Shown here one piece after another: positions 17,893-18,552 of a DNA stretch of 64,000 nucleotides (positions are counted from its first letter, which is position 1; each line of letters begins with the position of its first letter). The stretch is from NCBI RefSeq assembly GCF_003790525.1, contig NZ_CP033635.1. One strand, written 5' to 3'. Under the pieces are notes generated by a model that was not told the DNA's origin, made no database searches, and saw only the letters and a list, made by a program, of their open reading frames with translations. A program made the position numbers and the translations under genes. This DNA comes from Escherichia coli (GTDB lineage: Bacteria > Pseudomonadota > Gammaproteobacteria > Enterobacterales > Enterobacteriaceae).

Positions 17893-18552
17893 TCATGCGG
17901 TCATCCAGTTTTTTAGAATATTCGCCACCACGGGAGCGAAAGGTGCCAGATAACCGTCGACGGGGGTGAGTAATTCGTCGATAACCGCTTGCAGCAGGTC
18001 GTCATCCTCAAGCCCCTCTGAAGGGTCAATGCCATTAGCCCACAGAAGGCTGTCGGAAAGCTGCTTACGTTTTTCAATCAATGCCCGATTATTACGTTCA
18101 CTATCGCCAAGGTTGAGTACCTTAATCGCATCGATAGCTCTCGGCGTCGTCCCTTCAATTCGACCACTGATCTTGAAGATAAACTCGGTTTCACATTCCG
18201 GCATAAGCGGCGTTAACAGCAATGGCTGGTTCTTATGCGAGTCGTCACACTGGCCTTTTGTTTTGCAGCTTGCAACGATATTCGTGAATTCCAGACTGCG
18301 AGCAGGAGCTAAATCCCTGGCTTCGACATGTTCATTAACGGTATCGCGGTTTGTACCTGTCACGCGATCGCAGCAATAAGCACAGAGATAAAATTGCTCC
18401 TGAGCGCACTGCTGGCTGAGATCGCCAACGATATCCCATTTTTTTTGCGCATAAAGTTCCTGAAACCACTGATTGGCATTTTTATCCCGTGGTTTTGCTC
18501 TCACCCACTGTTGCAAACTGGCCGGCGGTTGCCCTTTAGTTATTTCGCGCAT
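17893..18552 (-). CDS. HNH-motif endonuclease-like protein, candidate Septu PtuB-type effector
   Basis: 219-aa ORF with Cys pair C57/C60-C61, N73-E74-H75, then C96/C102 and H106 (Cys pair - N..H - Cys pair - H, as in HNH zinc nucleases); start overlaps upstream ATPase gene by 17 nt; absent from this position in K-12 as recalled. Confidence 0.75.
   Translation of the reverse strand: MREITKGQPPASLQQWVRAKPRDKNANQWFQELYAQKKWDIVGDLSQQCAQEQFYLCAYCCDRVTGTNRDTVNEHVEARDLAPARSLEFTNIVASCKTKGQCDDSHKNQPLLLTPLMPECETEFIFKISGRIEGTTPRAIDAIKVLNLGDSERNNRALIEKRKQLSDSLLWANGIDPSEGLEDDDLLQAVIDELLTPVDGYLAPFAPVVANILKNWMTA

What the first reader, a model, noticed from the sequence alone, without database searches (positions are those of the whole stretch)
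18536..18552. 17-nt overlap between ATPase stop and HNH start suggests translational coupling and fixed stoichiometry
The HNH ATG (18552-18550, minus strand) lies inside the last six codons of the ATPase gene, whose TAA is at 18538-18536. Such overlaps are typical of obligate two-component systems and argue that both genes form a single operon and functional unit.
Basis: seen in the sequence. Interest (0 to 1): 0.35.

Follow-up and report, generated by a model that had tools for sequence, protein, structure and literature searches.

The report
Overlapping Septu ptuA–ptuB defence genes
The 17-base overlap is real and is the junction of a known two-gene anti-phage system (Septu: PtuA ATPase plus PtuB HNH nuclease) in E. 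coli; relatives all keep the nuclease start inside the ATPase gene, but this is an ordinary operon feature.

Summary
Observation confirmed. On the minus strand, ptuA (18536-19894, 452 aa) ends with TAA at 18538-18536. ptuB (17893-18552, 219 aa) starts with ATG at 18552-18550, giving a 17-nt overlap. RefSeq annotates the same boundaries.

The pair is a stand-alone Septu system in a 2.1-kb island between smrB and yfcO. It is a near-identical allele of Septu EcB88, which has been tested experimentally.

In 79 related loci from many genera, the ptuA stop always lies inside ptuB. Overlaps are 4, 8, 14, 17 (the most common, 35/79), 23 or 26 nt. The fixed feature is where the ptuB start sits: directly after the last conserved PtuA helix, which encodes ptuB's Shine-Dalgarno sequence. 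The Shine-Dalgarno sequence is kept at synonymous sites in non-cyanobacterial loci only. The ptuB start is 63% GTG/TTG, against 96% ATG for ptuA.

The claim that the genes are one operon and one functional unit is well supported. Translational coupling is plausible but unproven. Long overlaps couple poorly in published experiments, and the E. coli ptuB initiation site is unstructured with its own Shine-Dalgarno sequence and ATG. "Fixed stoichiometry" needs qualifying, because published PtuA:PtuB ratios are 2:1 or higher.

The system and the phenomenon are both known, so interest is low.

The parts
18536..19894 (-). ptuA: Septu ABC-type ATPase, 452 aa (Walker A K43, Walker B D316). Homologues align to the second ATG of the ATGATG start (19891).
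   Evidence: PADLOC PtuA PDLC00271 E=1.8e-168. Pfam AAA_21/AAA_23/AAA_15. RefSeq WP_000981121.1. K43 and D316 checked. Start comparison.
17893..18552 (-). ptuB: Septu HNH nuclease, 219 aa (H75, N91).
   Evidence: PADLOC PtuB PDLC00344 E=5e-95, aligned 1-218 to profile 1-212. NCBIfam PtuB and TIGR02646 match below their curated cut-offs. N-terminus conserved. One residue different from Septu EcB88 PtuB.
18536..18552 (-). 17-nt overlap: ptuB codons 1-6 (M R E I T K) lie over ptuA's last codons (H A R N N stop), with ptuB in the +1 frame.
   Evidence: In homologues, conservation inside the overlap follows the ptuB codon phase.
18560..18564 (-). Shine-Dalgarno-like AGGAA for ptuB, encoded by PtuA codons Gln-Glu (CAG GAA). 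AGGA ends 8 nt before the ATG.
   Evidence: Sequence. Duplex with the anti-SD is -4.3 kcal/mol. In 64 non-cyanobacterial loci the synonymous G is kept 61 times against 27.9 expected, with no excess in 14 cyanobacterial loci.
19926..19955 (-). Promoter-like site CTGACA-18-TAAGAT upstream of ptuA, inside the island.
   Evidence: It is the only minus-strand sigma-70-like hit in 17500-20800. The same sequence lies in the native-promoter fragment that gave defence in PMC13096335.
17862..17888 (-). Hairpin ACGGATGG-N11-CCATCCGT, 4 nt after the ptuB stop, between the convergent ptuB and yfcO. It has no U-run.
   Evidence: Read from the sequence. The terminator scan did not call it.
17852..19979 (.). 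Septu island: 2128 nt that replace the 70-nt smrB-yfcO spacer of E. coli K-12.
   Evidence: Homology to K-12 stops exactly at the smrB and yfcO stop codons. The full pair is present in 183 of 5426 complete E. coli genomes.

Best explanation
The overlap is the junction of a stand-alone Septu operon, ptuA-ptuB. This locus is an allele of the experimentally validated Septu EcB88. Both genes are most likely transcribed from a promoter just upstream of ptuA. The ptuB initiation region (AGGA, 8 nt, ATG) is written into the last codons of ptuA. By homology, those codons encode the end of the C-terminal helical domain that binds PtuB. Ribosomes finishing ptuA terminate 12-14 nt downstream of the ptuB start codon. 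I infer that a fraction of them re-initiate at ptuB after a short backward repositioning helped by the Shine-Dalgarno pairing, and that free 30S subunits can also start there because the site is unstructured. The expected result is co-expression from one mRNA with PtuB made in lower amounts than PtuA, which suits a complex built from PtuA dimers that each hold one PtuB. Shown here: the anatomy, the family identity, the conservation of the layout, selection on the Shine-Dalgarno sequence, and the bias toward weak ptuB start codons. Inferred: coupling itself, its mechanism and its effect on subunit ratio. The number 17 is not selected. The ptuA stop is simply the first stop in that frame, and its possible positions (8, 14, 17, 23, 26 nt) are set by the conserved PtuB N-terminal codons.
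For: Identity. Same boundaries in RefSeq. Allele of Septu EcB88, in which the K43, D316, H75 and N91 mutants lose defence. Stand-alone system, with no reverse transcriptase gene or retron RNA nearby. Overlap in 79/79 loci across gamma-, beta- and delta-proteobacteria, Neisseria and cyanobacteria (4 nt x1, 8 x16, 14 x21, 17 x35, 23 x3, 26 x3). Conservation follows the ptuA codon phase upstream of the start and the ptuB phase inside the overlap, and the PtuA tail after ...LLLRKQELR varies in length. Shine-Dalgarno sequence selected at synonymous sites (61/64 against 27.9 expected, and GAG 44/64 against 19.8), but not in cyanobacteria. ptuB start ATG in 29/79 against ptuA ATG in 73/76 (Fisher 2e-16), with weaker start codons paired with stronger Shine-Dalgarno sequences. 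Other Septu subfamilies show overlaps of 4 or 14 nt, gaps of only 2-5 nt, or a fusion. No promoter-like site inside ptuA. PtuA C-terminal helices scaffold PtuB at 2:1: PMC12640716 and PMC13376987. The PtuA C-terminus aligns with that domain of retron PtuA. Short overlaps are enriched in subunits of heteromeric complexes, and a Shine-Dalgarno sequence influences coupling efficiency: PMC10666635 and PMC12548453.
Against: There is no expression data for this locus. Published E. coli reporter studies find that coupling drops sharply as overlap grows from -4 towards -25 nt. The window's ptuB initiation region is open: the fold z-score is +0.8 and the mean unpaired probability is 0.69. With its own AGGA and ATG, it does not depend on ptuA translation by any visible mechanism. 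Persistence of the overlap could be explained entirely by protein-coding constraints on both sides of the junction. The statistical tests are not corrected for shared ancestry of the loci.
Confidence: 0.55

Rival explanations
1. Passive overlap with independent initiation. The two genes are co-transcribed, but ptuB is translated mainly by free 30S subunits binding its own Shine-Dalgarno sequence and ATG. The overlap persists only because the PtuA C-terminal helix cannot be shortened, the PtuB N-terminus cannot be moved, and the short PtuA tail is neutral.
For: The initiation region in the window is unstructured and has AGGA plus ATG. Conservation inside the overlap follows only the ptuB frame, and the PtuA tail varies from 3 to 8 residues. 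The allowed overlap lengths are fully explained by PtuB codons. Long overlaps couple poorly in reporters. Retron-type ptuA/ptuB pairs function with 2- and 5-nt gaps.
Against: 63% of homologues use GTG or TTG at ptuB while ptuA uses ATG in 96%, which is unusual for a gene relying on de novo initiation. No locus out of 79 has drifted to a gap. All Septu subfamilies sampled with an identifiable PtuB keep the genes within +5 nt or overlapping.
Confidence: 0.35
2. The overlap is an annotation artefact: ptuB really starts at a downstream TTG (codon 13) or GTG (codon 17), so the genes do not overlap.
For: In-frame TTG and GTG codons exist 36 and 48 nt downstream of the ATG (locus L003, whose junction is identical to the window's).
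Against: Residues 1-12 are conserved across genera, with I4 and K6 invariant and P10 at 90% or more. Profiles align from residue 1. A start codon sits at the homologous position in 78 of the 79 loci, and two codons upstream in L012. A Shine-Dalgarno sequence lies at the correct spacing from this ATG.
Confidence: 0.02
3. The overlap is a recoding site: a programmed +1 frameshift near the ptuA stop makes a PtuA-PtuB fusion protein, as encoded directly in Phocaeicola.
For: ptuB is in the +1 frame, the overlap is A-rich, and a natural fusion exists.
Against: There is no slippery motif that allows re-pairing: P-site AAC would have to shift to ACU. The Shine-Dalgarno-like sequence lies about 25 nt before the stop, not the roughly 3 nt seen in prfB-type +1 shifts (that spacing is from my own knowledge, not checked here). 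The stop position varies from 4 to 26 nt among homologues. ptuB has its own conserved start codon.
Confidence: 0.02

Closest known systems
Septu EcB88 (E. coli JBBDAGI-19-0041 ptuA WP_000981116.1 / ptuB WP_016243072.1; PMC13096335)
   Same: Same lengths (452 and 219 aa). Same catalytic residue numbers (K43, D316, H75, N91). The printed part of PtuA is identical. PtuB differs at one residue. The upstream promoter-like sequence is the same. That system defends against T5-like phages, T4 and T6 and acts through tRNA-Tyr cleavage.
   Different: It is a different strain allele (RefSeq WP_000981121.1 / WP_001206999.1 here). In the parts of the paper I searched, nothing addresses the gene overlap or how ptuB is translated.
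Stand-alone Septu of E. coli ATCC 25922 (PDB 8EE4/8EE7; Li et al. 2024, not held in the library, known through citing papers)
   Same: It has the same two-gene ATPase plus HNH architecture. PtuA is in excess over PtuB in the complex, with hexameric PtuA.
   Different: It is only distantly related in sequence: PtuA E=3.5e-32, and PtuB is found only with a profile, E=6e-7. Its gene junction was not examined here.
Retron Ec78/Eco7 and Ec83 PtuAB effector modules (type I-A retrons)
   Same: PtuA and PtuB are homologous, and these are the best PDB hits for this PtuA (9e8z, E=5e-63). The PtuA C-terminal helices hold PtuB at 2:1. PtuA or PtuB alone is not toxic, but together they are.
   Different: They carry a reverse transcriptase and ncRNA/msDNA as a sensor or antitoxin. 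Their PtuA is about 100 aa longer. In the two retron loci checked, ptuA and ptuB are separated by 2 or 5 nt rather than overlapping. No reverse transcriptase gene or retron RNA lies near this locus.
Translationally coupled overlapping gene pairs (termination-reinitiation; Huber et al. 2019/2023; review by Brown and Wade 2025)
   Same: The genes are co-directional and encode subunits of one complex. The downstream start lies inside the upstream gene, and a Shine-Dalgarno sequence sits in the upstream coding sequence.
   Different: The classic pairs overlap by 4 or 1 nt, less often 8 nt. A 17-nt overlap belongs to the rarer long class in the -8, -11, -14... phase, and is expected to couple less efficiently. 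Dependence on upstream translation has not been tested for this pair.

Membership tests
Septu (type I, stand-alone PtuAB) | [quoted passage not shown] | tested here: met
   PADLOC PtuA E=1.8e-168. Pfam AAA_21, AAA_23 and AAA_15 score above their gathering cut-offs. GNNGAGKT contains K43 and LIDE contains D316.
Septu (type I, stand-alone PtuAB) | PtuB: HNH nuclease of the TIGR02646 type | tested here: met
   PADLOC PtuB E=5e-95. H75, N91 and the Cys cluster are invariant in 28 homologues. The NCBIfam PtuB and TIGR02646 hits fall below their curated cut-offs (93 against 150 bits, 42 against 52 bits). Pfam finds nothing.
Septu (type I, stand-alone PtuAB) | Two adjacent co-oriented genes with no retron reverse transcriptase or ncRNA | tested here: met
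   The flanking genes are smrB and yfcO. There is no Rfam match in 15000-23000.
Septu (type I, stand-alone PtuAB) | Anti-phage activity that needs both enzymes | not testable with these tools
   This was shown for the near-identical EcB88 allele in PMC13096335, not for this strain.
Translational coupling by termination-reinitiation | Upstream stop and downstream start overlap or lie within a few nucleotides | tested here: inconclusive
   The genes overlap, but by 17 nt. That is outside the -8..+10 range treated as efficient in PMC10666635 and within the range where reporters lose coupling.
Translational coupling by termination-reinitiation | Downstream translation depends on upstream translation | not testable with these tools
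   This needs reporter fusions with premature stops, or ribosome profiling.
Translational coupling by termination-reinitiation | Shine-Dalgarno sequence for the downstream gene inside the upstream coding sequence | tested here: met
   AGGA lies 8 nt before the ATG. The site is selected at synonymous positions in 64 non-cyanobacterial loci.
Translational coupling by RNA unfolding | Downstream ribosome-binding site sequestered in a structure that upstream ribosomes melt | tested here: not met
   The window junction folds no better than shuffled sequence (z=+0.8). The initiation region has unpaired probability 0.69. A candidate hairpin shows no covariation and is absent in the window.

The most novel reading that the evidence does not exclude
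The junction may act as a conserved ratio-setting device. The ptuB start and Shine-Dalgarno sequence sit in the codons of the PtuA helix that binds PtuB. Re-initiation across a long overlap is inefficient, and in most lineages the start codon is also a weak GTG or TTG balanced against Shine-Dalgarno strength. Together these would deliver about one PtuB per PtuA dimer. PtuB would be made next to freshly made PtuA C-termini, so the nuclease would assemble in cis as it is translated and would never accumulate free or in excess.
Probability: 0.25. Interest if true: 0.4.

Novelty: already known. Interest (0 to 1): 0.2.

Why it matters
It matters little for discovery, since the system and the phenomenon are both known. 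There are three practical uses. First, RefSeq labels these genes only 'AAA family ATPase' and 'hypothetical protein', although they are a validated Septu allele. Second, anyone refactoring or separately expressing ptuA and ptuB will destroy the native junction, which carries ptuB's Shine-Dalgarno sequence inside ptuA's PtuB-binding helix. That could change the PtuA:PtuB ratio, and the PtuAB pair is toxic in retron-type relatives. Third, the conserved junction, with weak start codons balanced against Shine-Dalgarno strength, is a tractable natural case for testing how long overlaps set unequal subunit ratios.

Tried and rejected
1. RNA structure hiding the ptuB ribosome-binding site. The window junction folds no better than shuffles, and the initiation region is more open than its surroundings. 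Rejected for E. coli.

2. A conserved hairpin GCGCAA-N7-TTGCGC presenting the Shine-Dalgarno sequence in its loop. There is no covariation at the two synonymous-site pairs (28 paired against 26.7 expected; 45 against 41.7), and only 1 of 6 pairs can form in the window. It is a by-product of Arg-Lys...Leu-Arg codons.

3. Alternative downstream start codons. Rejected by N-terminal conservation.

4. Programmed frameshift fusion. There is no slippery site and the stop position varies.

5. A retron association. There is no reverse transcriptase gene and no Rfam hit.

6. My first overlap table over-extended four loci through a stop codon, giving 26 or 56 nt instead of 8. This was corrected.

7. phmmer of PtuB against the PDB found nothing. 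A profile search found retron Ec83 PtuB and 8EE7 PtuB only weakly.

8. Li et al. 2024, the stand-alone Septu structure paper, is not held in the library. Its hexameric PtuA assembly is cited only through later papers.

9. The stored copy of the EcB88 cloned DNA is cut before the junction, so identity of the overlap in that clone could not be checked directly.

Full report
**Observation.** On the minus strand the window reads ...CAG GAA ATT AAA CAT GCG CGA AAT AAC TAA in one frame and ATG CGC GAA ATA ACT AAA GGG in the +1 frame. The mechanical ORF list gives 18536..19894 (-) 452 aa and 17893..18552 (-) 219 aa. The same DNA occurs at 100% identity in E. coli SMS-3-5 and other strains. There NCBI's pipeline annotates the same two coding sequences with the same 17-nt overlap, as 'AAA family ATPase' WP_000981121.1 and 'hypothetical protein' WP_001206999.1.

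**What the genes are.** The upstream protein matches PADLOC PtuA models (E=1.8e-168) and the downstream one matches PtuB (E=5e-95, aligned from residue 1). Pfam sees AAA_21, AAA_23 and AAA_15 in the first protein and nothing in the second. NCBIfam gives retron-Ec78-type PtuA and PtuB and TIGR02646 below their curated cut-offs. The pair sits between smrB and the yfcO fimbrial gene. No reverse transcriptase gene is annotated there and there is no Rfam match, so it is a stand-alone Septu system.

Compared with K-12, homology stops exactly at the two flanking stop codons. A 2128-nt segment (17852-19979) replaces K-12's 70-nt spacer.

Supplementary data of PMC13096335 list Septu EcB88 from E. coli JBBDAGI-19-0041. 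Its PtuA has 452 aa and is identical over the printed part. Its PtuB has 219 aa and differs from the window protein at one residue. The cloned native-promoter fragment contains the same upstream sequence. The residues mutated in that paper (K43, D316, H75, N91) are the Walker A, Walker B and HNH residues of the window proteins. The window therefore carries an allele of a system shown to defend against T5-like phages, T4 and T6, and to need both enzymes.

**Is the start real?** An alignment of 28 PtuB homologues from many genera begins M-R-K/E-I-x-K, with I4 and K6 invariant and P10 and W16 at 90% or more. The downstream in-frame TTG and GTG are therefore not the start.

**Is the overlap conserved?** A scan of one genome per species returned 80 loci in gamma-, beta- and delta-proteobacteria, Neisseria and cyanobacteria. 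In all 79 usable loci the ptuA stop lies inside ptuB. The overlap is 4 nt in 1 locus, 8 nt in 16, 14 nt in 21, 17 nt in 35, 23 nt in 3 and 26 nt in 3 (corrected after four loci had been extended through a stop). All but the 4-nt case share one phase.

Overlaps of 11 and 20 nt are absent. At those positions the stop would have to begin at the third base of a Lys codon (K3 or K6), which is A or G rather than T. An 8-nt overlap is the shortest possible in this phase.

Position-wise information content follows the ptuA codon phase up to the start codon and the ptuB phase inside the overlap. The PtuA peptide after the conserved ...LLLRKQELR varies from 3 to 8 residues. What is conserved is therefore the placement of the ptuB start directly after PtuA's last conserved helix. 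The number 17 is only where the first stop in the ptuA frame happens to fall in this lineage.

**Signals for ptuB translation.** The conserved PtuA codons Lys-Gln-Glu read AAA CAG GAG (CAG GAA in E. coli). This places AGGAG, or AGGA in E. coli, 7-8 nt before the start.

- In 64 non-cyanobacterial loci the synonymous third base before the Glu codon is G in 61 cases, against 27.9 expected from the same gene's codon usage.
- In the same loci Glu is GAG in 44 cases, against 19.8 expected.
- In 14 cyanobacterial loci there is no excess (3 against 3.2, and 3 against 3.8).
- The ptuB start codon is ATG in 29 loci, GTG in 36 and TTG in 14. The conserved ptuA start is ATG in 73 of 76 loci (Fisher 2e-16).
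- Start codon and Shine-Dalgarno strength trade off. Cyanobacteria have no Shine-Dalgarno sequence (mean -1.5 kcal/mol) and 14/14 ATG. Elsewhere the means are -5.1 for ATG, -5.8 for GTG and -7.2 for TTG.

These tests are not corrected for shared ancestry.

**RNA structure.** The window junction folds no better than shuffled sequence (z=+0.8), and its initiation region is mostly unpaired (0.69). A candidate hairpin around the Shine-Dalgarno sequence shows no covariation and cannot form in the window. The RNA-unfolding type of coupling is therefore not supported.

**Other Septu subfamilies.** Annotated junctions show:

- a 4-nt overlap in Annamia, Burkholderia, Bacillus thuringiensis and an E. 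coli plasmid;
- a 14-nt overlap in Bacillus mycoides and Ketogulonicigenium;
- gaps of 2 and 5 nt in two retron-Ec78-type loci;
- a single 616-aa fusion protein in Phocaeicola dorei, in which residues 1-392 match PtuA and residues 416-575 match PtuB.

Tight linkage is thus general in the family, and long overlaps characterise this clade.

**Operon evidence.** The only minus-strand promoter-like site in 17500-20800 lies upstream of ptuA at 19955-19926, and none lies inside ptuA. In 5426 complete E. coli genomes, 183 carry the whole pair at 99% identity or more. About 475 others, such as CFT073, keep only the last ~230 nt of ptuB as an unannotated relic. The match counts show no class that keeps one intact gene alone.

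**What the literature says about coupling and ratio.** Overlaps of 4 and 1 nt, then 8 nt, dominate in prokaryotes. Overlaps of 10-60 nt are about four times rarer, and those in the -8, -11, -14... phase are commoner than those in the other phase (PMC10666635; PMC12548453). Short overlaps are enriched among subunits of heteromeric complexes. Reporter studies in E. coli find that lengthening the overlap from -4 to -25 nt strongly lowers coupling, to none at -25.

For PtuAB, the C-terminal helical domain of a PtuA dimer holds one PtuB (2:1). Assemblies of 4:2 and 4:1 are reported, stand-alone PtuA is hexameric, and PtuA or PtuB alone is not toxic while the pair is (PMC12819146, PMC12640716, PMC13376987). 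The C-terminus of the window PtuA aligns with that domain of retron PtuA.

**Interpretation.** Coupling is a reasonable inference from the conserved layout, the selected Shine-Dalgarno sequence and the weak start codons. It is not demonstrated, and in E. coli the open site with AGGA and ATG could also be used independently. If coupling operates, the long overlap and the known 2:1 or greater PtuA:PtuB ratio point to sub-stoichiometric PtuB synthesis rather than equal amounts. The main rival is a passive overlap locked in by coding constraints on both proteins, with independent initiation. I put it at about 0.35, against 0.55 for the mixed operon-plus-partial-coupling picture.

**Novelty.** Septu, its PtuAB complex and translational coupling at overlapping genes are all described, and this locus is an allele of a studied system. 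The junction analysis adds detail but no new kind of element.

Noticed in passing
L084 1504-3354 (Phocaeicola dorei plasmid pBdorCL06T03-4, NZ_CP072250.1): A single 616-aa protein carries a PtuA-like ATPase (residues 1-392, 36% identity) joined to a PtuB-like HNH region (residues 416-575). It is a natural PtuA-PtuB fusion, next to SIR2 and TIR genes.
   Followed up: partly
window 17884-18117; L096 1201-1434 (E. coli CFT073): About 475 complete E. coli genomes, such as CFT073, keep only the last ~230 nt of ptuB (95-97% identity) as an unannotated relic between smrB and yfcO. In these lineages ptuA and most of ptuB were deleted together.
   Followed up: partly
window 19936-19946 and 17951-17961 (minus strand): An 11-nt direct repeat, GTCGACGGTTA, occurs in the ptuA promoter region and again near the 3' end of ptuB, bracketing almost the whole island. 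About 0.5 such matches are expected by chance within 2.1 kb, so it may mean nothing.
   Followed up: no
window 19889-19894: ptuA begins ATGATG. In 73 of 76 homologues the conserved start aligns with the second ATG (19891-19889), so the true E. coli start may be one codon later than annotated.
   Followed up: partly
window 17862-17888: An 8-bp hairpin (ACGGATGG-N11-CCATCCGT) lies 4 nt after the ptuB stop, between the convergent ptuB and yfcO. It has no U-run on either strand. K-12 has a different hairpin (CAGGGGC-GAAT-GCCCCTG) in its 70-nt spacer.
   Followed up: no
L089 202-4552 (Ketogulonicigenium vulgare plasmid 1, NC_017386.1): Here ptuA-ptuB sit inside a type I restriction-modification operon, between the S subunit and the R subunit. 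The junction overlaps are 4, 14 and 1 nt. An Enterobacter plasmid hit (H17) also has an S subunit gene adjacent.
   Followed up: no
L013, L019, L020, L023, L026, L028, L034, L036, L043, L044, L046, L048, L049, L081 (cyanobacterial loci): All 14 cyanobacterial ptuB genes start with ATG and lack the Shine-Dalgarno sequence (CAA GAA instead of CAG GAG). In proteobacteria GTG and TTG starts dominate and come with stronger Shine-Dalgarno sequences. This is an apparent trade-off between start codon and Shine-Dalgarno strength.
   Followed up: partly
L091 1983-3463 (E. coli ZYB62 plasmid, NZ_CP074368.1); L064 (Arthrospira sp. PCC 9108): These are decayed Septu copies. In the E. coli plasmid, ptuA is truncated to 241 aa right after an IS66-family element. 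In the Arthrospira locus, PtuB aligns only from residue 73.
   Followed up: no
window 37355-37365 (from SMS-3-5 record 2518539-2518549): folC and dedD overlap by 11 nt. This is the only other same-strand overlap longer than 4 nt in the SMS-3-5 region matching this window.
   Followed up: no
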